Source of the DNA: Waddliaceae bacterium
GTDB lineage: Bacteria; Chlamydiota; Chlamydiia; Chlamydiales; SLOH01
Assembly: GCA_040880105.1 (NCBI GenBank)
Contig: JBBDJA010000015.1
Coordinates: forward strand, 1-27,703
Length of the DNA: 27,703 bases
Reading direction: 5' to 3'
This document shows, one piece after another, positions 6,429 through 27,282 of this stretch. The position numbers were made by a program, and so were the translations under genes. Under the pieces are notes generated by a model. That model searched no databases. It had not been told where the DNA came from and was given only the letters and a program-made list of their open reading frames with translations. How positions within the stretch are numbered: the first letter of the stretch is position 1; the number at the start of each line of letters is the position of its first letter.

Positions 6429-7604
6429 TTAAAGCTCCTCCTTTTCATCCCTTGTCTTTAAATTCTCAATAAGCGCATGGACATTTTCTTCTGTAACCCT
6501 TCGGCAATTTAACACTCTCACCTTTCGAAGACTTGGAATCCCTTCTAAAAGGGTAAGCGCATCATCTGTAAGGTCGGGACAGGTCCAAAAACTGATCGTG
6601 TGCAACTGTTTGAGTTCGGAAAAAGAGGCGAGTGCGCGTTCGTTCAGATTGGAACACCATGAAAAGTGGAGCTGCTCAATATTTGGAAGGGTTGAAAGAT
6701 GGCTGTATCCGGCCGCATCCACTTGTGTGCACTGAGAAAGGTATAGTACCTTTAAATTTTTCAATTGAGCAAGCCTATTGATTCCCTTATTCGTCACGCC
6801 TTGGCAATTGCCTAAAAAGAGGGTGTGAAGCACAGACAATTCGCTCAAATAACTAATTTCTAAATCCTTAATAAAATGACAGATGCGCAGTTCAAGTTCA
6901 CCTAATAGTCGCAAATTTCTCACATACCCAAAAGAGCGGAACGTGACATTTCTTGACACCGTCCGAAACTCCTCCACTTCAGGGGTCAGGTAAGAGAGAA
7001 TTCTCACATGATGATCTCTGATCGTATGGCGATAGCATCCAAGGTTCACACGTCTGAGCGCATAGCGTGAAAAGAGACTCTCAATAAAAATAATGGCCTC
7101 GCTTGGATCTTTGCACCCGATCTCTTTAAAATTGAGCTTTCCTTCGTTTAGCAGCTCGACAATCGCGCGGGTCGAAAGCTCTTCGGCTCGCTCTTTTAGA
7201 TCTTCTGTCGAGAGATAGTCGTAAATGATTCTTTTAAGATCGAAAATTTCTATAGCTTCATCACCCTTTTCTATGATGAAGGGAAAGGGTTTTGCTTCCA
7301 TCAGTTTATGAACGTTTTGAGCCGATTCATTAAAAAGGGCAATTTCAGAGAGCCTTTCATTCTTTTCGATAATATGATGAAATTGCATCATGACTCGAGT
7401 GATGAGTCTTGCGTTTTGATCGTCACAATGATGAAAGCGACGGAATATGTGGTATACACCCTCAATGTCTGCAGCCTCCTTCACCCCCTTTAGTATTCTT
7501 AACATTTTCGGATAAGTGGTCCTTGTCTGGAATGGTAAGAGGTGTATTTTAACCTCCTCCTTAACTTCAGACTGTACTGAGGATGGAATGGGGGCAGCAC
7601 TCAT
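6429..7604 (-). CDS. Leucine-rich repeat protein (cysteine-containing, eukaryote-like LRRs); candidate secreted effector
   Basis: C-terminal third has about five 25-aa repeats of the LxxLxLxxCxxVTDxGLxxL type; Ser/Pro-rich N-terminus; GAGG upstream of ATG. Confidence 0.8.
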   Translation of the reverse strand: MSAAPIPSSVQSEVKEEVKIHLLPFQTRTTYPKMLRILKGVKEAADIEGVYHIFRRFHHCDDQNARLITRVMMQFHHIIEKNERLSEIALFNESAQNVHKLMEAKPFPFIIEKGDEAIEIFDLKRIIYDYLSTEDLKERAEELSTRAIVELLNEGKLNFKEIGCKDPSEAIIFIESLFSRYALRRVNLGCYRHTIRDHHVRILSYLTPEVEEFRTVSRNVTFRSFGYVRNLRLLGELELRICHFIKDLEISYLSELSVLHTLFLGNCQGVTNKGINRLAQLKNLKVLYLSQCTQVDAAGYSHLSTLPNIEQLHFSWCSNLNERALASFSELKQLHTISFWTCPDLTDDALTLLEGIPSLRKVRVLNCRRVTEENVHALIENLKTRDEKEEL

Positions 7605-7816: not shown

Positions 7817-8146
7817 ATGGGATATGAAATCGAGATCTTCGCTAAATCAAATGGAAAAGAACCTTTTGTTCAATGGCTGGAAACTTTAGATGTTAACACT
7901 CAGGCTTTGGTTCTTCAGAGACTGCAAAGAATTAAATCTGGTAATTTTGGAGACTGTAAACCTATTGCTTCAGGACTTTGGGAGTTTCGTATCCATAGTA
8001 ATTCCGGATTGAGAATATATTACAACCGAAGCGGTGAGAAAATTATTTTAATCCTCGGTGGTGGAATAAAAAGAACTCAAAATCGAGATATCAATCAGGC
8101 CAAAAAATACTTGGAAGAATATAGGAGTAATCAAAATGAAAAATAA
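7817..8146 (+). CDS. Type II toxin, RelE/ParE superfamily (addiction module killer, HI1419-like)
   Basis: GKEPFVQWL, RLQRIKSGNFGDCKPI, GLWEFRIH, GLRIYY, LGGGIKRTQNRDI. Confidence 0.9.
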   Translation: MGYEIEIFAKSNGKEPFVQWLETLDVNTQALVLQRLQRIKSGNFGDCKPIASGLWEFRIHSNSGLRIYYNRSGEKIILILGGGIKRTQNRDINQAKKYLEEYRSNQNEK

Positions 8147-8447
8147 ACTTCGTTCTTATGATGATCTTTTAGAAGAATATCTTCAGAATCCAAAATTCGC
8201 AATCAAGTTTCTTAATCAAGCGTTGGCGGATGAAGATGTTGATGCATTCACAATGTCTTTAAAAGATATTATTCGCATACGCGGTAACATCACCGACTTA
8301 GCAAAAGAGGCTGATGTAAGCCGAGGAACAGTCTATAGGATAATAAATGGTCAGGGGCATGCAGAAATTGGAACTGTGTTAAAACTTATGCACGCATTAG
8401 GTTATGACCTTACGGTTAAAAAAAGACCTAATTCACTGAGTCTGTAA
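8136..8447 (+). CDS. Type II antitoxin with HTH (addiction module antidote, HI1420-like)
   Basis: Overlaps the toxin by 11 nt; FLNQALADED N-terminus and Xre-type HTH ITDLAKEADVSRGTVYR...LKLMHALG. Confidence 0.88.
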   Translation: MKNKLRSYDDLLEEYLQNPKFAIKFLNQALADEDVDAFTMSLKDIIRIRGNITDLAKEADVSRGTVYRIINGQGHAEIGTVLKLMHALGYDLTVKKRPNSLSL

Positions 8448-8540: not shown

Positions 8541-10469
8541 TTAATCTTTTGAGGCAGCTTTTTTAATGCGATTTAAATTGGATTTAAGGACGCCATTTTC
8601 AGGATTTTCCCGGATCAGCTCTTCGGTCAAAGCAATTGCTGTCTCAAAGTCTTTATCCAGATACGCCTTCTTTGCAAGATAGGACTTTGCCTCACTTGAG
8701 CGATCCTGAATCATGCGGTAAAGAGAGACTGCAAGATCAGTGTTATCCTCTGCGAGCGCGCTGCGGGCAAGCAAAGCGACAGCTTCCGGGTCCGATACAA
8801 ATGAAGGGTTTTCCTCTATGACGGTTTTGACTTTTTCATGCTTGTTTTCTTTCATCAAAAGAGCGGCCGCTTTTTTAGCTGCATTGAGTCCGGTCGGGGT
8901 TTCAAAGCGGGACGCTAAGAGAAGATGCGAAAGCGCTCTCTCTTTATCTCCTCGGCTTAGATAATACTCCGAGAGATAGATGGCAAGTTCGGGATGAGGC
9001 GGCTGATTTTCGGCGTACTGCACGGCAGACTCTGTTCCCTCGACTTCTTCAATTAGGGCGGTAAATTCAGGTGCGACCCAGGAGGGGTAGTTCTCTTGCA
9101 ACTTCTCTCTCTTTGAAAATAGCGCGTAGGCAGCCTTTTTCCAGCCGGAAGCGAGAAGCGCAGCGGAGTAGGCGATCTTGCTCTCAAGTAGGGCACGCAA
9201 TTGCAGATCGTCGCTTGCATTCTTCTGCTCAAGTTGAAGAAAGAGCGGGTGGCGGTTATAAGAGATATTCAAATCTTGAGGATAGTGGGCCGGAAGATCG
9301 AAATTTCCCTCAATCTGATACTGCAAAATGCGTAGCATTCCAAGTTGAAGATCGGGGTCTAACGATTGGGTGGGGAAGGGGTTAAATAGAAGGAGGTTCC
9401 ATGCCTTTTCCGCCTCTTCTCTTTGAAGCGCATCTAAAATTTGAAGCCAAAATACAGATGACTCCTCTTCTTGAATCATCGCGTAGCCTTTAATCTGCTC
9501 AAAAGCGCCTTGATCCCAATAGAGTCCCTCGGGAAGGGAGGCTAGATAGCGGTGATAGTCGCTGAGTTCACCTTCGGGAATCTTTTCGACCTTAATTGTG
9601 GTAGGTTCGGCAACGTGTTCCCAAAAAAGAAGTTGATCCCAAAGAAAGGGGAGATTCTCTTTTGCAATTGCCTCTTGCCAAACGTCGATCGCTTGATCAA
9701 ACTGCCTTTGTCTCACATAGAACTTTGCCAACTGATCTTGAAGATAGGGGTTGTAGGTGTCTAGATCGACGGCGGCAAGATACTCTGTTTGGGCCATCTG
9801 GATCTTGCCGGCGCTCTCAAGAAGAGCAGCGCGCCATAGACGTGTCTTTGGATCTGTAGAATTTTGCTTAAGCGCCTTGGATAAGTGGTCCCACGCCTTT
9901 TTGGGCTGGTCTTGGTTTAGGTGGGCAAGTCGAATCTGTTTTTCCAGATTTAAATCCCCTGTCATTGCAGTTTTGTCCAGTAGCTCTTTAGCCTCTTTTG
10001 TTTTCCCCTTGTACATCAACAGATCAGCATCCAAAAGTGTCCAAGCAGGTTTTTGAATCTCTTTGCCTTTCCAGTGATTGCGAAGGGTGTGATATTGTGA
10101 GGACGAACCTGCGATGAGGTAATGTTTGGCAACTAGGAGGGCTGGATTTTCAAGTTGGGAAAACTGCTGAGGGTACTGTTCATATAGCGCAACAAGCCCC
10201 TCGATATCTTTTTGCTTCTCCTTTGCAATCACCGTCAGATGGAACCATTTCCGACCGGTAATTGACTGGGGGTCAATCGATCCGCTCTGCTTTTCAATAA
10301 TATCAAGTGCACTTTCCGTATGATTTTGCGAAAGCAGAAGGGAGGCGCGCGCAATCTCTTCGCTTTGATTGGATTGGTCATTTTGTGTATTCCCGGGAAT
10401 AAATGTCCAAATAATCAAAAACAAGGCGGCAATGATTATAAAAGTAAAGTAGGAGCGTTCTTTAGACAT
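8541..10469 (-). CDS. Tetratricopeptide-repeat protein with N-terminal membrane anchor
   Basis: Hydrophobic FTFIIIAALFLIIWTF followed by TPR-like helices (AQTEYLAAVDLDTYNP, AIALTEELIRENPEN); ATG at 10469 preferred over GTG at 10481. Confidence 0.75.
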   Translation of the reverse strand: MSKERSYFTFIIIAALFLIIWTFIPGNTQNDQSNQSEEIARASLLLSQNHTESALDIIEKQSGSIDPQSITGRKWFHLTVIAKEKQKDIEGLVALYEQYPQQFSQLENPALLVAKHYLIAGSSSQYHTLRNHWKGKEIQKPAWTLLDADLLMYKGKTKEAKELLDKTAMTGDLNLEKQIRLAHLNQDQPKKAWDHLSKALKQNSTDPKTRLWRAALLESAGKIQMAQTEYLAAVDLDTYNPYLQDQLAKFYVRQRQFDQAIDVWQEAIAKENLPFLWDQLLFWEHVAEPTTIKVEKIPEGELSDYHRYLASLPEGLYWDQGAFEQIKGYAMIQEEESSVFWLQILDALQREEAEKAWNLLLFNPFPTQSLDPDLQLGMLRILQYQIEGNFDLPAHYPQDLNISYNRHPLFLQLEQKNASDDLQLRALLESKIAYSAALLASGWKKAAYALFSKREKLQENYPSWVAPEFTALIEEVEGTESAVQYAENQPPHPELAIYLSEYYLSRGDKERALSHLLLASRFETPTGLNAAKKAAALLMKENKHEKVKTVIEENPSFVSDPEAVALLARSALAEDNTDLAVSLYRMIQDRSSEAKSYLAKKAYLDKDFETAIALTEELIRENPENGVLKSNLNRIKKAASKD

Positions 10470-10530
10470 CTTCGTATACACGCATTTTAAATGAAAAACA
10501 CATATTTACATGATAATAGATTTTTTGCAC

Positions 10531-17595: not shown

Positions 17596-18831
17596 ATGCT
17601 CCGTTTCATCTTCTGTATTGCCGTTTTTACTACCGCCCTAACTCACGGAGACTTAAGGGTAAAGCCGGGAATTGATCAACTCATCGAGCAGTCGCTTCAC
17701 CTCTTAAAAGGAAAGCGCGTCGGGATCCTGACCAACCACACCGGAATTAACAGCCGTTGCCGCTCCACAATCGATCTACTGAAAGAGAATCAAACAAGAG
17801 GCTCCTATAAAGTCACCGCCCTTTTTGCGCCCGAACACGGACTGAACGGAAGTAAATATGCAGAGCAGGCGATTAACAACTGCGTGGACCCTGACGGAAT
17901 TCCCATTTACGGCTTGCACGGAAAACATTACCGTCCGACCCCCAAGGCACTTGAGACAGTCGATGTGATTGTCTACGACATCCAAGACCTCGGTTCGCGC
18001 ACCTACACCTATCTCAACACCCTTTTTCTTACCATGGAAGAGGCCGCAAAGAAAAATGTAGAGGTGATTGTCTGCGATAGACCCAATCCGATTAACGGCA
18101 TTGTTGTCGACGGGCCCATGGTCGAGAAGAAACATCGCTCCATTATCGGCTATGTGGATATTCCCTATTGCCACGGAATGACAGCCGGCGAACTTGCCAC
18201 CCTCTTTAACCAAGAGGAAAATGTCGGCTGCAAGCTACATGTCATCTCAATGACAGGCTGGAAAAGGGAGATGACATTTGATCAAACAGGGCTTCCTTGG
18301 ATTCCGACAAGTCCGCATATCCCCGAAGCTAAAACCGCATTTTACTACCCAATGACCGGAATTATCGGCTCTTTGAAACTCGTCAACACCGGCGTCTGGT
18401 ACTCAACCCCCTTCCGTCTCATCGGCGCCCCTTGGATCAACGGGAAGGAGCTTGCCGACAATCTGAACAGTCAAAACTACCCGGGAATCCATTTTCAACC
18501 CTTCCACTTTACCCCCTACTTTGGACGGTATCTCAAAGAAGAGTGCGAAGGCATCTACTTAATCGTCACAGACCCGCTGACCTTTAAGCCGGTAAGCACC
18601 CAGTTCCTCATCCTCGGCATGTTAAAGTCGCTATATCCCAAACATTTTCAAGACGCAATCAAAGCTGCCAAGGAACAAGAAGCCTCCATTGCGCGCATAT
18701 GCGGCACAGATCAAGTGACCCACATTATTGCAAACTCACCGTATATCGCCTGGCCGCTGCGCTCTTTACATAAGCAAGAGCGTGAAAACTTCCTCCCGAT
18801 TCGAAAGAAGTACCTTAACCCTCAGTATTGA
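17596..18831 (+). CDS. namZ: Exo-beta-N-acetylmuramidase NamZ (DUF1343/YbbC family) with signal peptide
   Basis: GKRVGILTNHTG, LFAPEHG, YDIQDLGSRTYTY, DRPNP, HGMTAGELA, WIPTSPHIP. Confidence 0.9.
   Translation: MLRFIFCIAVFTTALTHGDLRVKPGIDQLIEQSLHLLKGKRVGILTNHTGINSRCRSTIDLLKENQTRGSYKVTALFAPEHGLNGSKYAEQAINNCVDPDGIPIYGLHGKHYRPTPKALETVDVIVYDIQDLGSRTYTYLNTLFLTMEEAAKKNVEVIVCDRPNPINGIVVDGPMVEKKHRSIIGYVDIPYCHGMTAGELATLFNQEENVGCKLHVISMTGWKREMTFDQTGLPWIPTSPHIPEAKTAFYYPMTGIIGSLKLVNTGVWYSTPFRLIGAPWINGKELADNLNSQNYPGIHFQPFHFTPYFGRYLKEECEGIYLIVTDPLTFKPVSTQFLILGMLKSLYPKHFQDAIKAAKEQEASIARICGTDQVTHIIANSPYIAWPLRSLHKQERENFLPIRKKYLNPQY
18125..18831 (+). repeat. 707-bp direct repeat, copy 1 (3' half of namZ)
   Basis: Matches 22465-23171 at offset 4340; five substitutions found by eye. 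Confidence 0.97.
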
Positions 18832-18872
18832 AGCGAAGACCCGACAGTTTTTTCAACTTTCTCGACTGTTGT
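18831..18872 (-). pseudogene. Diverged 3' fragment of the non-specific endonuclease gene
   Basis: 35 of 42 positions match 23200-23240; reads TTVEKVEK(+1)LSGLRF versus TTFEKVKKLSGLHF. Confidence 0.7.
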
Positions 18873-18949
18873 TAAAACCACACAATATCCTTGTTAATTC
18901 TACCTTCCCAAGCTTTATTCATACTTCCCATAAATTAGAAGTTTCAAAG

Positions 18950-19114
18950 GAAATTATCACGCAATGTGAGAATTCAATTCCACTGAAACGATTTAAACAA
19001 CCAAGTGGAATCGAAAAAACTGCTGTTTTTCTAGCGCCTGATGACTCAAGCTATATGACAGGAGTAGATATGTTTATTGGTGGAGGGGTAATAAACATTT
19101 CTCCTCCTTTATAA
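18950..19114 (+). pseudogene. C-terminal fragment of an SDR family oxidoreductase
   Basis: IPLKRFKQPSGIEKTAVFLAPDDSSYMTGVDMFIGGG matches the SDR C-terminal consensus; no N-terminal TGxxxGxG or YxxxK seen. Confidence 0.75.
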
Positions 19115-19446
19115 TTTCAGAGTCGTTAAACCTTATGACCTTTTCGAAGATAGGTAAATTTGACTTCTGCTATTTGTTCATTAAGCTCACAAGGAAGCTT
19201 TTCTACCCCTTGTATTGATATCCTTGGAAAGGAACTTTAGCTTCGTTCAAGGCGGATTGAACAGACAATGTCTTCATACATTCACTTCAAATTAGGAATT
19301 ACCATGGTCCTCAGTTTATGGGAGAGGCTTCCTGTTACCTCGGTACTTGGCGTGTTTTAACTTCTACAGTACTAAATGAGAGATAATGATAAAGGACTCC
19401 TTAAGCAGGTTCTAAAATAAAGAGCATACCAAAGACAAGTACAGGG

Positions 19447-20346
19447 TCATGTCTGCCCCCGAACCACTGGAGATAAAGTGAGCCAACCCAGTTGTGTCCA
19501 TGATTGAATCCAGATATGGAATTTATTCATCATAGTTTCCTGAACTTGACTGTCTTGAGATTTAATCCAGTCACAAGCCTCTAAAATATTTACTCCTTCT
19601 TTAAAGTACCCTAAAAGGAGGTATTCTGCCTGCCTGACTTTTTTCCATGAAATATTATTATTCATGTTTCTAAAAATGACATAATATAAATTATTTTTTT
19701 GACACATGGAAGAACTGTGTTTTTTTGAATACTCAGGATCATTATTTATTATTATTTCTCTTATGTTGAGCAAATCATATGAAGATTTTAATAAAAAAAC
19801 ATGAGGCTGCAATTTAATATTTTTATTTAAAAAATTCTCCTCTATTACAGCTTCTTTTGATATAGAAGGAAAGTGTGTGGTGATTGAACTTAAATAAAAA
19901 TATAAGTCGGTTTGAGCTGCATCAAATATAAGTTTCCCATCTGTTAATTCATTGTTTTCTTTAATCCACTCAGGATAATTCCTTCCAAGCACTGTTAAAG
20001 ACCAGTAATCAGGTGGGTATTTCATTAAATATTGAATGGTAATTTTTTCAAATTTCGTATAGCCGAGAAGGCTTAAGGTCAATGGAAAGTTTTTTTGCAT
20101 AAAATTAATTAAACGCCACCAATATTGTTTATTATATATTTCAATTCTTTGATGAGGTTTTAATGAATTGCTTGGTGATATATAATATTCTGCTTCTTTT
20201 TTTATGGGATTTCCTCTTGGAGAGATGGGATTAACCTCTTCATTTTCAGTGACAGGCCTTATAATAACACTTGCAAACCACTCTTGTAGATTCTTTACCT
20301 CAGTTGGAATTTCACCTAATTTATCGGAAAATTTATTTTCATTCAT
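19447..20346 (-). CDS. DUF2063-family MNIO partner protein (HvfC/BufC-like)
   Basis: LQEWFASVI, RIEIYNKQYWWRL...FPLT..LLG..KF...YL..YPP signature; directly downstream of the DUF692 gene. Confidence 0.85.
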   Translation of the reverse strand: MNENKFSDKLGEIPTEVKNLQEWFASVIIRPVTENEEVNPISPRGNPIKKEAEYYISPSNSLKPHQRIEIYNKQYWWRLINFMQKNFPLTLSLLGYTKFEKITIQYLMKYPPDYWSLTVLGRNYPEWIKENNELTDGKLIFDAAQTDLYFYLSSITTHFPSISKEAVIEENFLNKNIKLQPHVFLLKSSYDLLNIREIIINNDPEYSKKHSSSMCQKNNLYYVIFRNMNNNISWKKVRQAEYLLLGYFKEGVNILEACDWIKSQDSQVQETMMNKFHIWIQSWTQLGWLTLSPVVRGQT

Positions 20347-20374
20347 GAATAAGCTAAAAGCCTCTTTAAGAAAA

Positions 20375-21220
20375 TTAATTAAAATTATACTGAAATTCTT
20401 TAGCCCTCAAAGCCTCGGCCCACGTCTCTTGAAAAGGTAAAAAGTTGTCATCCCACTCGATCAAGGTCGAAACGCCGCCCGTAAGCGGATAGATTTCGCT
20501 GTATAGCTTCCAAACTTCATCGCATATAGGTTGATCATGAGTATCTAAAACATAGTTTCCCATATCATTATGACCAGCTAAATGAATTTGAATCACTTTT
20601 TCAATTGGTATATTTCTATAATAATCTTGAGGATCAAATCCATGATTTCGACTTGAAACATAAATATTATTTACATCCAACATCATATAAATTCCTGCAC
20701 GCTCTACTACCTCAGAGTAAAATTCCCATTCACTCATTTCATCTAGATTGAAAGAAGCATATGATGATAAATTTTCAAGGGCAAATGGTATTTCTAGAAA
20801 GTCTTGAACTATCCTAGCTCTTTCAGAAACATAGTCAATTACCCCCTTAGTATAAGGAAGTGGCAACAAATCATGAAAATGAGCTCCTGGTAAATGTCCC
20901 CAACAAAGGTGATCCGAGATCCATGGTGTTTTAGTCTTTCTAGAAAGTCTTTTTAATCTCGTTAAATAGTCAAAATCTAAAGGTGCAGGACTTCCTATAG
21001 CCAATGAAACACCATGTTGAACAACAGTATACCTTTCCAAAATTTTTTCAAGACACTCAATCTGTTTACCTCCATCAACCATAAAATTTTCACTGATAAT
21101 TTCAAACCAGTCAACATCGGGTTTTAAATTACAAATTTCATCGTAATACTCGTTTCTGAATCCAATGCCAATTCCTAAATTTGGGATTGGCTTTTTAATT
21201 CCAAGTGATTTTTCAGTCAT
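20375..21220 (-). CDS. DUF692 multinuclear non-heme iron oxidative enzyme (MNIO)
   Basis: GIGFR, WFEIISENF, HGVSLAIG, SDHLCW, DLLPLPY, LENLSSY, LDVNNIY, IHLAGH, DTH, IEWD; expected iron-ligand motifs present. Confidence 0.95.
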   Translation of the reverse strand: MTEKSLGIKKPIPNLGIGIGFRNEYYDEICNLKPDVDWFEIISENFMVDGGKQIECLEKILERYTVVQHGVSLAIGSPAPLDFDYLTRLKRLSRKTKTPWISDHLCWGHLPGAHFHDLLPLPYTKGVIDYVSERARIVQDFLEIPFALENLSSYASFNLDEMSEWEFYSEVVERAGIYMMLDVNNIYVSSRNHGFDPQDYYRNIPIEKVIQIHLAGHNDMGNYVLDTHDQPICDEVWKLYSEIYPLTGGVSTLIEWDDNFLPFQETWAEALRAKEFQYNFN

Positions 21221-21277
21221 AAAAATATGTGTTTGGTAAATGTAATTTTAATAGTATAACTCGATTTTGCAACTTTT

Positions 21278-21310
21278 ACGATCATTAGCTACAGGATAGG
21301 TAATGATCGT
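21278..21310 (-). promoter_or_regulatory. Intergenic stem-loop between the precursor gene and the MNIO gene
   Basis: ACGATCATTA (21278-21287) and TAATGATCGT (21301-21310) form a perfect 10-bp inverted repeat with 3 more pairs after a mismatch. Confidence 0.65.
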
Positions 21311-21350
21311 TATTTTTTACAAATCAAGCTAAATGCAACTTTTCTTTATA

Positions 21351-21563
21351 CTATTGAGATGACCTATCGTCATCATTTACAGAGTATGAAGTTGTAGGTC
21401 TATAAGGTCCTTTGCACTGGCCACAGGTAAGCACATCCTTAAAGGGTGTGACTGTCTCATGTATGCTTGAGTCGTTGTTTTGATCCTGAATAATCGAATC
21501 ATTTGCGCTCAATGCTGAAAGCATAGATGTTGCAACTAAAGTTGCTAGTGTATTTTTCTCCAT
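21351..21563 (-). CDS. Putative RiPP precursor peptide (Sec-type signal peptide, CGQCKG motif)
   Basis: 70 aa; AAGGAG 7 nt before ATG; hydrophobic residues 6-20; only two Cys (C47, C50); immediately upstream of the MNIO gene. Confidence 0.75.
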   Translation of the reverse strand: MEKNTLATLVATSMLSALSANDSIIQDQNNDSSIHETVTPFKDVLTCGQCKGPYRPTTSYSVNDDDRSSQ

Positions 21564-21593
21564 TTTTAAACTCCTTGTTTATGATTTTCAAAG

Positions 21594-22145
21594 TTAATCT
21601 AATATTTTTGAGACATAGAATTCATTTTCATAATTCCCATTGATAAGCACAGCAGATTTCTTAACACCTTCAACTTCATATCCATATTTTTGATAAAAAC
21701 TGATTCCTATGTGATTTGACACTCTTACTTTAGCTTGTATCCTTTTAACCCCCATTTCCTTTGCAAGATTTTCCACTATAAACAGCTTCTGAGTACCAAG
21801 ACCAATAGAGCAGTATTCATTTAGTATTCTTATACCAAATTCTGCGGTGTGCTTTTCGTAAGGATGAAATGGACGAGGTTTATAAAAACTTAAATGTGAG
21901 ACGAGTTTATTTTCATCAAATCCCCCTAACTCTATCTGCCATGCTGATTTTTTTGCATCCTTCCATTTCTCTTTCAAAAAAGTAACATCTGCAAATTGTC
22001 CCGGATAGTGTAATGTATGTGTTGTTTCACTGGATATTTGGTCCGAGAAGCTTGCATAAATATCTGCATCAGCCGGCTCTAAATGACGAACGACAATTTC
22101 TTTATCGCATTTTAATAGGACTTTTTTTGGAAGGTATGTTGTCAT
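21594..22145 (-). CDS. GNAT family N-acetyltransferase
   Basis: HTAEFGIRI, acetyl-CoA loop YCSIGLGT, VSNHIGISFYQKYGYEVEG; ATG 22145 preferred because a TATAAT lies at 22173-22178, inside the longer GTG-started ORF. Confidence 0.85.
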   Translation of the reverse strand: MTTYLPKKVLLKCDKEIVVRHLEPADADIYASFSDQISSETTHTLHYPGQFADVTFLKEKWKDAKKSAWQIELGGFDENKLVSHLSFYKPRPFHPYEKHTAEFGIRILNEYCSIGLGTQKLFIVENLAKEMGVKRIQAKVRVSNHIGISFYQKYGYEVEGVKKSAVLINGNYENEFYVSKILD

Positions 22146-22220
22146 AAATTCACTTAATTTCGACAAATTACTATTATATTGCACAAGTGTAAAAATAAGG
22201 AAAGGTAAAACAATGAAAAA

Positions 22221-22462
22221 TCGTATCTTAATCCAGTGGTAATGAGAAAGGTTGAAGGAATGATAGAAACTTTTTGCGGATTTGAAGCCTCAAAAAATCA
22301 GATTAACGATATTTCCTCTCGATTGGAGGAGGATATAGTAATATAGAAAAACCAAAGAACAGAAAAGAACTACGAATATCTAATTGTAGATGCACGCTAC
22401 GAGAAGGTACGAGAGGGCGGACGGGTATCAGTAAAGCATTTCTTGTGTGTATTGGAATTACC
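22221..22462 (+). pseudogene. IS256-family (Mutator-type) transposase fragment
   Basis: SYLNPVVMRKVEGMIETFCGFEASKNQINDISSRLEEDIVI*KNQRTEKNYEYLIVDARYEKVREGGRV/SKAFLVCIGIT; stop at 22344-22346 where the family has Trp/Phe, plus a frameshift near 22428. Confidence 0.85.
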
Positions 22463-22464
22463 CT

Positions 22465-23171
22465 AGAAGAAACATCGTTCTATTATCGGCTACGTGGATA
22501 TTCCCTATTGCCACGGAATGACAGCCGGCGAACTTGCCACCCTCTTTAACCAAGAGGAAAATGTCGGCTGCAAGCTACATGTCATCTCAATGACAGGCTG
22601 GAAAAGGGAGATGACATTTGATCAAACAGGGCTTCCTTGGATTCCGACAAGTCCGCATATCCCCGAAGCTAAAACCGCATTTTACTACCCAATGACCGGA
22701 ATTATCGGCTCTTTGAAACTCGTCAACACCGGCGTCTGGTACTCAACCCCCTTCCGTCTCATCGGCGCCCCTTGGATCAACGGGAAGGAGCTTGCCGACA
22801 ATCTGAACAGTCAAAACTACCCGGGAATCCATTTTCAACCCTTCCACTTTACCCCCTACTTTGGACGGTATCTCAAAGAAGAGTGCGAAGGCATCTACTT
22901 AATCGTCACAGACCCGCTGACCTTTAAGCCGGTAAGCACCCAGTTCCTCATCCTCGGCATGTTAAAGTCGCTATATCCCAAACATTTTCAAGACGCAATC
23001 AAAGCTGCCAAGGAACAAGAAGCCTCCATTGCGCGCATATGCGGCACAGATCAAGTGACCCACATTATTGCAAACTCACCGTATATCGCCTGGCCGCTGC
23101 GCTCTTTACATAAGCAAGAGCGTGAAAACTTCCTCCCGATTCGAAAGAAGTATCTTAACCCTCAGTATTAA
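22465..23171 (+). pseudogene. namZ: 5'-truncated namZ copy (direct repeat copy 2)
   Basis: Protein identical to the C-terminal half of 17596-18831; lacks signal peptide and the PEHG/DIQD region; in-frame TAG at the junction. Confidence 0.9.
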
Positions 23172-23186
23172 AGGGGCGCAAGGGAT

Positions 23187-23843
23187 TCAAAACTTCCCAA
23201 AGTGAAGGCCCGATAGCTTTTTAACTTTTTCGAATGTTGTCTGGAAATCGTCAAGAGACTTTTTAGGAATAGAGTCACGGTTGGGTAAAATATACGCCTC
23301 TATTTTCTTGCCGACGAAAATCACCTTAAAGAAATGGGTCGGAACGGCGACATTATTTTCACCGATCACTTCATAGATCACTACTTTTTTTCCATTTTTT
23401 GCCTTTACCGGAACAAAGAGCGGACCTGATATCACAGTGACTTTTAAATGTTCCATTGCCAACTTCCGTGTCCGCTCTTCCAGATCACCCCAGAGTCCGC
23501 AATTCAGCCTCATCGCTTGAGGAGAGACATTGGAGAGATAGAAACTCTCTTTCATTGATTCACGGGAGCATTTGTGATTAGCCGCCGCGGACAAATGCCC
23601 CCGAGTGTACCCCGAATGTTTGTAGTCATCAAGAGAGGCGCTGACCTCTTCAGGAAGGTCCGGATCTCTTCTAAAGTTCATATTTTTTCTTGAGACGAAT
23701 CCCTCGAACGCCTCTTTTCTCAAAACTTCAATCACAAACGCCGGCTGCTTTAACCTGCAATCGTAGATGAGAGAATAACGGGAACGAGAAACAAAGAATA
23801 AAGATTTAGGTAACGAACAGAAGCTTCTTGAGACAGTGCTCAT
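23187..23843 (-). CDS. DNA/RNA non-specific endonuclease (NucA/EndoG family)
   Basis: YKHSGYTRGHLSAA, SFYLSNVSPQ, LNCGLWGDLE, VISGP, VAVPTHFFKV. Confidence 0.9.
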   Translation of the reverse strand: MSTVSRSFCSLPKSLFFVSRSRYSLIYDCRLKQPAFVIEVLRKEAFEGFVSRKNMNFRRDPDLPEEVSASLDDYKHSGYTRGHLSAAANHKCSRESMKESFYLSNVSPQAMRLNCGLWGDLEERTRKLAMEHLKVTVISGPLFVPVKAKNGKKVVIYEVIGENNVAVPTHFFKVIFVGKKIEAYILPNRDSIPKKSLDDFQTTFEKVKKLSGLHFGKF

Positions 23844-26304: not shown

Positions 26305-26544
26305 TCAGTAAAAAGATTGTTTAATATTTTCAATCAATGCTAACAAAAGTATCAGCGAGAACACCATTAGAGCTGAAGTAATCCAGAAAATGAATATTAA
26401 TTTCTGTTTTTTTTTGTAAAAACTTGTATCAACTTTTAAGTGACTCACACACCTAAAAATCAACTCATACAAGTTACTGATTATGCTGAAGACAGCTAAA
26501 ACAATCACAACAACAACAAAAATAGAAAAACGATAATCAGCCAC
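26305..26544 (-). CDS. Small two-helix membrane protein, unknown function
   Basis: 79 aa, two hydrophobic segments, GTG start with GAGGAGG upstream, 8-nt overlap with the upstream ORF. Confidence 0.55.
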   Translation of the reverse strand: MADYRFSIFVVVVIVLAVFSIISNLYELIFRCVSHLKVDTSFYKKKQKLIFIFWITSALMVFSLILLLALIENIKQSFY

Positions 26545-26993
26545 GTTGCCTCCTCACTTCCCTATCTTGCTCAACGTAATCATTGCCTATCATTGTTAAA
26601 CCTGTAGTGATTAATGCGACACCGACAGGCTGAAAATAAGGCAAGCAACAGATCGAGCGTCCACAGAAGCAAGTAACTAATCCCATTGCGACACTGAGTG
26701 GAATTTCTTCATCCTCATCCATGCTTCCAATGGTCATTACTTTACTGAAATTATTGGATTTTTTTGGTTTAGCTAGCTTGTTCATTTTGTAGTATCTCAA
26801 TCTTTAAATGAATGTTTTCGCGTGTTTTGTGCTTAATTTCCCCTCTGATTTTTTTAGAAAAGTAATCAAACCCCTGCTCTAAATAGAACTCTTGTTTATA
26901 TCTATCGCTTACGTGAGCATCAAGAAAAGAACTTTGGAGAATGAGAAAACTACATAGCACGCTAGAAATATTTGGAACATAATTGTTCTGCAT
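26537..26993 (-). pseudogene. Probable frameshifted exported/membrane protein (ORFs 26769-26993 and 26537-26800)
   Basis: Upstream ORF starts with a signal-peptide-like segment, downstream ORF has a hydrophobic hairpin; they overlap by 32 nt in different frames. Confidence 0.4.
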
Positions 26994-27151
26994 TGTTTTC
27001 TTTCCTTTATTGTGAAATCTTTTGAAAGATTATTGATGTTGATCATGTTCTCAATGAGCATAGACAAAAGTTGAGCTAATGCAAAAAAGAAGCCCATGAG
27101 TGTCAATAATTTCAAGGTGTAAAAGACTACTCTAACTTGATCAGCTTCCAT
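26909..27151 (-). CDS. Small hydrophobic protein, unknown function
   Basis: GAGGAAG before ATG at about 27151 (MEADQ...), one or two hydrophobic segments; overlaps the next ORF. Confidence 0.4.
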   Translation of the reverse strand: MEADQVRVVFYTLKLLTLMGFFFALAQLLSMLIENMININNLSKDFTIKERKQCRTIMFQIFLACYVVFSFSKVLFLMLT

Positions 27152-27282
27152 TGTCTTCCTCATCATTTTTCACAGGATCATTAAGTGTTTGTCTCGATAT
27201 TAAATGCAAATCTTTCACCTTATCTTTATCAACTCTTGTATTAAAACAAATTACAGCACCAACCTTGAGCATTTATAGGGAA

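What the first reader, a model, noticed from the sequence alone, without database searches (positions are those of the whole stretch)
19447..22145. Candidate new MNIO (DUF692) RiPP operon: GNAT, precursor, MNIO, DUF2063
Seen: four co-directional AT-rich genes on the minus strand; the MNIO retains its expected metal-ligand motifs and all four frames are open, while the flanking island DNA is decayed (SDR and IS256 fragments). Established: MNIO plus DUF2063 partner pairs modify cysteines of small precursors (HvfBC oxazolins, BufBC bufferins; also MbnBC and ChrHI with other partners), often giving copper-binding peptides. Inference: a functional pathway with an atypical layout, having no DoxX-type membrane protein, sigma/anti-sigma pair or transporter, but an acetyltransferase, in a probable intracellular chlamydial symbiont.
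Basis: partly seen in the sequence, partly recalled or inferred. Interest (0 to 1): 0.88.

Follow-up and report, generated by a model that had tools for sequence, protein, structure and literature searches.

The report
Mobile chlamydial copper-peptide cassette with acetyltransferase
An environmental Chlamydia-like bacterium has picked up a four-gene cassette in which a known kind of iron enzyme most likely turns two cysteines of a small, so far undescribed peptide into copper-binding rings; what is new is the peptide family and the acetyltransferase gene that travels with it.

Summary
All four genes are real and intact, on a 34%-GC island between 709-bp repeats of namZ. The MNIO is an ordinary bufferin-2/captophorin-type enzyme: it passes the BufB cut-off, keeps the ligands and the Cys-Lys signature, and has matches in 139 of 401 chlamydial genomes. 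The scan found chlamydial bufferin loci before, on other DNA. Two things are new. The 70-aa peptide belongs to an unannotated 12-member family ending in T-C-x-Q-C-(N/K)-x-P, not to Buf1, Buf2 or EGKCG. The GNAT travels with it: adjacent in two other DNA loci (one a relic), and sharing contig lengths with peptide and DUF2063 in two more records (indirect), yet absent from 115 other chlamydial MNIO loci. Best model: the MNIO and DUF2063 install 5-thiooxazoles on the CxxC, giving an exported copper chelator, and the GNAT is a fixed accessory. Acetylation of the peptide itself is about 30% likely. No complete second cassette was read as DNA.

The parts
21594..22145 (-). GNAT-family N-acetyltransferase, 183 aa; first gene of the cassette
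   Evidence: PF00583 38.4 bits; 15 clusters at 53-100% identity; glycine motif G115/G117 invariant; model of homolog P0007 closest to uncharacterised GNATs 2i79 and 2ge3; dN/dS 0.19 against L139
21351..21563 (-). Putative precursor peptide, 70 aa: hydrophobic N-terminal 20 residues, polar spacer, T46-C47-G-Q49-C50-K-G-P53
   Evidence: 12-member family, invariant E2 L6 A7 L9 S13 L18 E36 T46 C47 Q49 C50 P53; no Pfam or NCBIfam family over cut-off; dN/dS 0.46 against L139; starts 30 bases after the GNAT stop behind an AAGGAG
21252..21355 (-). RNA stem-loop directly after the peptide stop (inner stem about 21261-21329); probable message-stabilising or attenuating hairpin
   Evidence: -31.3 kcal/mol, z = -5.15, 0 of 200 shuffles as stable; inverted repeat I1; function inferred
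20375..21220 (-). MNIO (DUF692) maturase of the BufB / Cys-Lys captophorin type, 281 aa
   Evidence: NF050167 321 bits over cut-off 310; HvfB, ChrH, ApyH, MbnB models below cut-off; E-W-D-D motif at 255-258; H25 replaced by Y at a column invariant in 115 others
19447..20346 (-). DUF2063-RRE partner (PME type 1), 299 aa
   Evidence: PF09836 over cut-off; weak HvfC match over residues 64-287; forms an 8-member clade (support 0.98) that holds none of 109 chlamydial genome loci
18125..18833 (+). Left copy of the 709-bp direct repeat (3' end of the intact namZ gene 17596-18831)
   Evidence: 99.3% identical to the right copy; all 5 differences silent
22465..23173 (+). Right copy of the direct repeat (5'-truncated namZ)
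   Evidence: junction contigs in runs X1 and X2
18854..19108 (+). Short-chain dehydrogenase C-terminal fragment (passenger DNA)
   Evidence: PF13561 positions 161-235, E 6e-12
22221..22464 (+). Internal IS256/Mutator transposase fragment with stops and a frameshift, ending about 75 bases upstream of the GNAT
   Evidence: PF00872 E 2.3e-14, 2 TAG inside; pieces; frames

Best explanation
A horizontally acquired, chlamydia-derived captophorin (bufferin-2-lineage) cassette with its own precursor family. Shown by sequence: four intact genes, a BufB-type MNIO, a DUF2063-RRE partner, a conserved two-Cys peptide in the precursor slot, and a GNAT inherited with it. Inferred: one transcript runs from the GNAT through DUF2063; the hairpin after the peptide keeps peptide message in excess over the enzymes; in the cytoplasm MNIO plus DUF2063 oxidise C47 and/or C50 to 5-thiooxazoles (-4 Da each); the hydrophobic N-terminus takes the peptide through Sec; one or two peptides then chelate excess copper met in the host cell or sediment. 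The GNAT is a fixed but accessory member that most likely acetylates a small amine or another protein as part of the same stress response and does not tailor the peptide. The cassette entered the chromosome by single crossover into namZ from DNA of a related strain. My odds: peptide is the MNIO substrate with thiooxazole chemistry about 0.7; given that, GNAT not acting on it about 0.6.
For: MNIO over the BufB cut-off only, ligands intact and D257-D258 matching the catalytic base and the Cys-Lys Asp described in PMC13097082. That paper states all characterised MNIO-PME1 clusters install 5-thiooxazole. Gene order precursor-MNIO-partner is strict in bufferins. No other Buf2-like or two-Cys precursor was found in G000 with three home-made profiles, and it has one MNIO. 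Peptide family keeps T-C-x-Q-C in 12 of 12. Peptide, GNAT and DUF2063 homologs share longest-contig lengths 53,940 and 21,128. For an accessory GNAT: no conserved Lys in the core (P0047 has none after residue 10); a Sec-made N-terminus would be out of reach; nearest models are small-amine and uncharacterised acetyltransferases; an 80%-identical GNAT in G284 is followed by a methyltransferase instead. Integration: putA and groES each lie within 1.5 kb of namZ in 9 of 14 relatives; all 7 differences seen between repeat copies are silent.
Against: No second complete cassette was read as DNA; the two shared contig lengths show neither gene order nor the MNIO. In L139 the GNAT and peptide are followed by 229 bases without an MNIO start before the contig ends, and in L140 the peptide is cut before its cysteines with no MNIO in the next 320 bases. 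The N-terminus is a weak signal peptide (net charge 0, best 11-residue hydropathy 1.65, below the 5th percentile 1.78 of 79 chlamydial Buf2-like precursors), and no signal predictor was available. The core shows no homology to chlamydial Buf2 or two-Cys precursors beyond the N-terminus. The MNIO has H25Y at an otherwise invariant column near the substrate-selecting loop, so chemistry or activity may differ. The tight GNAT-peptide link argues for a direct role of the GNAT. Copper function is by analogy only.
Confidence: 0.43

Rival explanations
1. Same thiooxazole chemistry, but the GNAT is a tailoring enzyme that acetylates the peptide: the new N-terminus after cytoplasmic leader removal, the invariant Thr46 hydroxyl next to the ring, or a ring thiol. 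The product would be an acylated captophorin, possibly not Sec-exported.
For: GNAT directly precedes a family peptide in 3 of 4 DNA-read loci of the GNAT clade at 58-100% identity (window, L139, L140 relic; not G284); equal dS for GNAT and peptide against L139 (0.80, 0.79); GNAT family absent from 115 other chlamydial MNIO loci; N-terminal 20 residues more conserved than usual for a signal and barely basic; GNATs acylate N-termini, Lys and hydroxyls in other RiPPs, and the pfl cluster joins a GNAT to an MNIO fusion (PMC12636437 passages).
Against: No protease in the cassette; no conserved Lys; Met-Glu starts also occur in 12 of 156 chlamydial precursor candidates that lack a GNAT; PflB itself showed no activity on full-length peptide; G284 keeps the GNAT without the peptide beside it.
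Confidence: 0.29
2. GNAT plus peptide is a module of its own (for example an unmodified CxxC metal- or redox-binding peptide with its acetyltransferase) that was placed in front of an MNIO-DUF2063 pair which lost its Buf2 precursor; the MNIO does not modify this peptide.
For: L139 and L140 show GNAT plus peptide without an adjacent MNIO; no detectable core homology to chlamydial precursors; 12 peptide and 15 GNAT clusters against 8 DUF2063 in the clade.
Against: Peptide sits in the canonical precursor slot with a hairpin behind it; DUF2063 identities track GNAT and peptide identities across the matched sets (77/88/71 and 71/86/59 per cent); the partner forms its own clade; no other substrate found in G000; L139 ends soon after the peptide and L140 is a relic.
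Confidence: 0.15
3. The MNIO modifies the CxxC by different chemistry, such as a ChrH-like macrocycle joining the two cysteines.
For: ChrA is modified on two Cys spaced CxxC (PMC10214503 passages); long MNIO branch (0.258) and H25Y; short unstructured precursor.
Against: ChrH model scores 62.5 against cut-off 600 while BufB passes; the partner is DUF2063, not ChrI-like DUF1772.
Confidence: 0.08
4. The cassette is silent passenger DNA starting to decay in this genome, or the repeat structure is an assembly artefact.
For: Decayed SDR and IS256 flanks; IS fragment only about 75 bases upstream of the GNAT; no promoter-like site above chance (17 found, 15.0 expected); window peptide lacks a third Cys and a His seen in its three closest homologs; repeat core depth is not doubled in run X1.
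Against: All four frames intact and full length against homologs; the third Cys is not conserved in the wider family; unique junction contigs occur in two runs at depths like the flanks.
Confidence: 0.05

Closest known systems
Bufferin 2 of Caulobacter vibrioides (bufA2B2C2; Buf_6/12Cys; Cys-Lys captophorin group; bioRxiv 10.1101/2024.03.18.585515, PMC12452194, PMC13097082)
   Same: BufB-type MNIO over cut-off, DUF2063-RRE partner, order precursor-MNIO-partner, no DoxX, no sigma pair, no transporter, D-D active-site signature, signal-like precursor N-terminus
   Different: Precursor has two invariant Cys (T-C-x-Q-C), not six or twelve, and no BufA2 match; a GNAT leads the operon; mobile island
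Oxazolin (HvfABC), fontiphorin, gonophorin, bulbicupramide (EGKCG / Lys-Cys captophorins)
   Same: MNIO plus DUF2063 acting on Cys of an unstructured precursor; a Cys-Gly dyad at C47
   Different: No EGKCG repeats; HvfB model below cut-off (245 of 360); Asp in place of the Phe after the catalytic Asp
Chlamydial MNIO-DUF2063 loci of Parachlamydia, Protochlamydia and Neochlamydia (15 rows in Data set S1 of PMC13097082; earlier scan findings)
   Same: MNIO 61-78% identical and nested among them; some carry only two-Cys signal-bearing precursors; similar ME-start N-termini
   Different: Their precursors are mostly 70-440 aa with Buf2-like or GC-xx-GC motifs; none of 156 candidates holds TCxQC; none of 115 loci has this GNAT; partner of the window forms a separate clade
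Chryseobasin (ChrA/ChrH/ChrI; PMC10214503)
   Same: Short precursor with a C-terminal CxxC modified by an MNIO
   Different: Different MNIO subfamily and partner; motif CPACGMG not present
Pseudomonas pfl cluster (PMC12636437)
   Same: Precursor, GNAT and an MNIO domain in one cluster; GNAT role unresolved; no conserved Lys; no protease
   Different: MNIO fused to nitroreductase, HEXXH enzyme and transporters, Cys-independent chemistry, no DUF2063 named

Membership tests
Captophorin / bufferin-type MNIO-PME1 cluster | MNIO of the bufferin mega-cluster with intact iron ligands and catalytic Asp | tested here: met
   NF050167 321 > 310; ligand columns kept; D257 aligned and PMC13097082 section 14
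Captophorin / bufferin-type MNIO-PME1 cluster | DUF2063-RRE (PME type 1) partner right after the MNIO | tested here: met
   PF09836 50.1 > 27.2, 299 aa, 28 bases downstream
Captophorin / bufferin-type MNIO-PME1 cluster | Cys-containing precursor gene immediately upstream | tested here: met
   70-aa ORF, two invariant Cys in 12 of 12 family members
Captophorin / bufferin-type MNIO-PME1 cluster | Sec signal peptide on the precursor | tested here: inconclusive
   Hydrophobic stretch present (1.65 in the window, 1.89-2.9 in homologs) but net charge 0 to +1 and no conserved cleavage motif; no signal predictor available
Captophorin / bufferin-type MNIO-PME1 cluster | Cys converted to 5-thiooxazole | not testable with these tools
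   needs mass spectrometry and NMR
Captophorin / bufferin-type MNIO-PME1 cluster | Copper binding, induction by and protection from copper | not testable with these tools
   needs bench work
Bufferin 2 precursor (Buf_6/12Cys, NF050166) | Six or twelve conserved Cys in a folded domain | tested here: not met
   Two Cys; no NF050166 hit at E <= 1 while 4 of 5 chlamydial neighbours tested hit it below cut-off; own Buf2-core profile misses the window
Bufferin 1 precursor (DUF2282) | DUF2282 domain with four Cys; sigma/NrsF nearby | tested here: not met
   No DUF2282 hit; no sigma gene in the ORF list
Buf_EGKCG / oxazolin | Repeated EGKCG motifs and HvfB-type MNIO | tested here: not met
   No such repeat; NF003818 245 < 360
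Chryseobasin | ChrH-type MNIO, DUF1772 partner, CPACGMG motif | tested here: not met
   NF050165 62.5 < 600; partner is DUF2063; motif absent
Chlamydial two-Cys precursors (unnamed) | Homology of the Cys-bearing core | tested here: inconclusive
   Scores 10.5-12.3 bits beat all 200 full shuffles but not shuffles that keep residues 1-20 (6-74 of 200 as high); best reverse scores E 4e-4 and weaker
RiPP-tailoring GNAT | Acylates the precursor or product | not testable with these tools
   Only linkage, fold and lack of conserved Lys could be examined

The most novel reading that the evidence does not exclude
A dedicated four-gene RiPP pathway that spreads among chlamydial symbionts on plasmid-like DNA and makes a minimal bis-thiooxazole CxxC peptide that is further acetylated by its own GNAT (N-terminus after leader removal, Thr46 hydroxyl or a ring thiol): the first acylated captophorin, with an MNIO whose substrate loop (H25Y) was retuned to it.
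Probability: 0.28. Interest if true: 0.72.

Novelty: new variant of a known kind. Interest (0 to 1): 0.5.

Why it matters
Captophorins are among the largest RiPP classes, and their described cores are precursor, MNIO, partner and at most DoxX. A conserved tailoring enzyme, or a two-Cys minimal precursor, would extend the chemistry and give a short, easily expressed substrate for studying MNIO selectivity. It also shows that these systems move between intracellular chlamydial symbionts, which makes it testable whether modified peptides help such bacteria against host copper. If the GNAT does nothing to the peptide, the finding is a modest addition: one more precursor family for a known enzyme class.

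Tried and rejected
Complex prediction of GNAT with peptide gave no answer (score 0.01); not used as evidence. No RNA holder listed among sequencing runs. Promoter scan at chance level. Peptide as query found nothing in metagenome contigs, viral contigs or plasmids (only chance hits); GNAT found nothing in viral contigs and only 27-32% Bacillota hits in plasmids. The 4-sequence peptide profile matched 2 of 400 genomes (own and one weak hit with a stop); the 12-sequence profile 10 of 401, nine at E 0.002-0.03, of which I inspected one (G124, a frameshifted relic). GNAT profile: 4 of 73, 0 of 129 and 0 of 103 genomes in three families, the four being distant homologs already known; these are samples, plasmids are often unassembled. 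G005 was not scored. Same-genus G401 (57% complete) had no namZ or DUF2063 match, so the empty site could not be read there. ESM Atlas gave only scores under 0.8. The L139 tail matched nothing, so an insertion between peptide and MNIO is neither shown nor excluded. Pairing P0023 with L139 is a guess from shared source labels and is not counted as a cassette. P0049, P0050 and P0055 were dropped from the family as repetitive long proteins (P0050 not viewed). The first HMM test that the peptide descends from chlamydial two-Cys precursors failed its stricter control. My regex classifier of upstream genes missed real precursors, so the HMM count is reported; that profile was built from 50 of the same loci and is partly circular. 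The GNAT count covers this family only: an unrelated GNAT downstream in L006 was not detected by it. The idea that Met-Glu marks an acetylation site was weakened. Rejected: that lacking DoxX, sigma and transporter is unusual.
Full report
Observation. The four minus-strand frames are present and open and match GNAT, no family, MNIO and DUF2063. The block 18834-22464 is 33.9% GC, below all 442 blocks of equal size in the 41.9%-GC genome; third-position GC of the four genes is 0.26-0.34 against 0.48-0.59 in four neighbours. An SDR C-terminal fragment and a broken internal piece of an IS256 transposase flank the genes. The genome (90% complete) holds no second MNIO or DUF2063 by tblastn.

How it got there. 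The island lies between two copies of the last 709 bp of namZ, 99.3% identical. The five differences, and two more in a contig of run X2, are all silent, which fits two working alleles rather than a decaying duplicate. putA and groES each lie within 1.5 kb of namZ in 9 of 14 relatives, so the island interrupts an old gene order. I infer single-crossover integration of a 4,340-base circle made in a related strain. Unique junction contigs exist in runs X1 and X2 (one study; X1 may be the source; the right junction has only 30 letters of overlap in X1, 59 in X2). No contig spans the repeat, and its depth is doubled in X2 (15.9 against 4.6-8.6) but not in X1 (11.9 against 9.2-10.1), so an integrated copy and a free circle cannot be told apart.

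The enzyme is ordinary. It passes the BufB cut-off only. Matches at E <= 1e-20 occur in 139 of 401 sampled genomes of the phylum, own included, most at 61-78% identity; in a FastTree it falls inside the chlamydial group on a long branch with weak local support. All inspected ligand columns are kept. D257-D258 corresponds to the catalytic Asp and the Phe-to-Asp change of Cys-Lys MNIOs (PMC13097082 section 14; alignment to 3bww). One oddity: His25, invariant in 115 others, is Tyr, next to the positions that by alignment match the substrate-selecting FonB Arg15/Arg16. I read the surroundings of 115 other chlamydial MNIO loci (109 best of 138 genomes plus 6 named records; 1.5-4 kb flanks; at least one duplicate pair). 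A Buf2-like six-Cys core was found in 84 (partly circular profile; NCBIfam BufA2 hit 4 of 5 tested neighbours below cut-off); many others carry signal-bearing two-Cys or Gly/Cys-rich proteins. DoxX was found in 7 with one query, and this GNAT family in none. In print, Caulobacter buf2 lacks a bufD-like gene and BufD1 is dispensable (passages), and sigma/NrsF genes are not found in Buf2 clusters (results text). The missing genes are therefore normal.

The peptide is a real, undescribed family. Three homologs at 63-73% came from the word search, one from L139 and seven more from a profile search of 1.84 billion representatives (three long repetitive hits dropped). Twelve aligned sequences of about 57-70 residues (one 93) keep E2, L6, A7, L9, S13, L18, E36 and T-C-x-Q-C-x-x-P. 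No Pfam or NCBIfam model passes. Against L139, dN/dS is 0.46 (Fisher p = 0.039 on rounded counts). The motifs TCGQC, TCNQC, TCQQC, CGQCN, CNQCN and CGQCK do not occur in the 24,106-row precursor table of PMC13097082 (long cells are cut, and the SI PDF could not be read). TCxQC occurs in 0 of 156 chlamydial candidates. Its N-terminus resembles chlamydial precursor signals, the core does not score beyond that. A strong hairpin follows the stop codon (z = -5.15).

The GNAT belongs to the cassette. L139, a 28%-GC metagenome contig with a gene whose only plasmid matches are chlamydial plasmids, has the GNAT (74%) followed 30 bases later by the peptide with a conserved spacer. L140 has a 58% GNAT followed by a peptide relic cut before the cysteines. 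GNAT P0045, peptide P0002 and DUF2063 P0021 share a longest contig of 53,940 bases; P0007, P0004 and P0022 share 21,128; this is indirect and shows neither order nor MNIO. Identities move together (GNAT/peptide/partner 88/71/77 and 86/59/71), dS is equal for GNAT and peptide (0.80, 0.79), and eight DUF2063 clusters form a clade (0.98) that holds none of 109 genome loci and is weakly sister (0.76) to a group rich in two-Cys precursors. Against a strict link: G284 has an 80% GNAT, split over two contig ends, followed by an O-methyltransferase; L139 shows no MNIO in its last 229 bases; more distant GNATs (26-51%) in seven other genomes are not beside an MNIO.

Mechanism. Shown: anatomy, family assignments, selection, co-inheritance. 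From established knowledge: BufB plus BufC suffice to make two thiooxazoles and all characterised MNIO-PME1 pairs make 5-thiooxazole, with products that generally bind copper. Inferred: C47 (Cys-Gly) and C50 (Cys-Lys here, Cys-Asn in 10 of 12) are the targets; export is by Sec, though the signal is weak; copper is the ligand. The genome also has three heavy-metal P-type ATPases over cut-off, which says only that metals matter to it. For the GNAT, sequence and fold point to uncharacterised and small-amine acetyltransferases, with protein N-acetyltransferases close behind, and the core has no conserved Lys. I put acetylation of the peptide at about 0.4 given MNIO action. Precedent for a GNAT in an MNIO cluster exists in pfl, where its role is unresolved.

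Novelty. Chlamydial MNIO-PME1 pairs are listed in print (15 rows) and three earlier scan findings describe chlamydial bufferin loci. Antoine et al. note hundreds of small unclassified precursors beside this MNIO cluster; their main text has no mention of acetyltransferase, GNAT or chlamydiae, and one supplementary file was cut when stored. Seven literature searches gave no report of this peptide family or of a GNAT in a bufferin/captophorin cluster; most subscription papers are outside the library. What I saw of each paper: PMC12452194 abstract, outline, results parts 1-3 of 4, passages, supplement search; 10.1101/2024.03.18.585515 passages; PMC13097082 passages, sections 13-14, two data sets searched; PMC12538549 abstract and first part of section 9; PMC10214503, PMC12636437, PMC13174530, PMC10989515 passages. 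Verdict: new variant of a known kind, interest 0.5.

Noticed in passing
window 18125-18833 and 22465-23173: 709-bp direct repeat of the namZ 3' end with only silent differences, ending at the stop codon; makes the 4,340-base island excisable by recombination.
   Followed up: yes
L082-L110 and L148-L227, upstream of the MNIO: Environmental chlamydiae carry very varied MNIO precursors: Buf2-like six-Cys domains behind a helical module, two-Cys G-C-x(2-4)-G-C proteins with long low-complexity tails, and tandem arrays of up to four genes (L195, L207); those tested fall below the NCBIfam BufA2 cut-off.
   Followed up: partly
G303:C1 (five places): One genome holds five divergent MNIO copies (51-57% identity to the window), one with a stop; not fetched.
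   Followed up: no
L242 1401-1647 (G124:C24): Frameshifted relic of the same peptide family after a transposase remnant, with no GNAT or MNIO in the 15 kb fetched.
   Followed up: partly
L112 1-444 and L120 57-1454 (G284): 80%-identical GNAT split over two contig ends, followed by an O-methyltransferase (PF00891) and preceded by a divergent BrnQ transporter.
   Followed up: partly
L113, L115, L117 (G244, G322, G124): More distant members of the GNAT family lie tail to tail with a multi-pass transporter that looks MATE-like (by eye, not scanned).
   Followed up: no
L139 1-6316: 28%-GC plasmid-like contig with two large Sel1-repeat proteins and a small protein matching Criblamydia and Protochlamydia plasmids.
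   Followed up: partly
window 7817-8447: Two-gene pair that looks like a RelE-type toxin and HTH antitoxin module (by eye, not scanned), in a low-GC dip.
   Followed up: no
window 6429-7604 and 8541-10481: A leucine-rich-repeat protein and a TPR protein of the kinds common in intracellular symbionts (Pfam).
   Followed up: partly
window 26305-27166: Four short, partly hydrophobic minus-strand ORFs in low-GC DNA after groEL with no Pfam hit over cut-off.
   Followed up: partly
window 23187-23843: A non-specific endonuclease gene lies between namZ and groES here and beside groES in same-genus G401, but was not found near namZ in 14 more distant relatives.
   Followed up: partly
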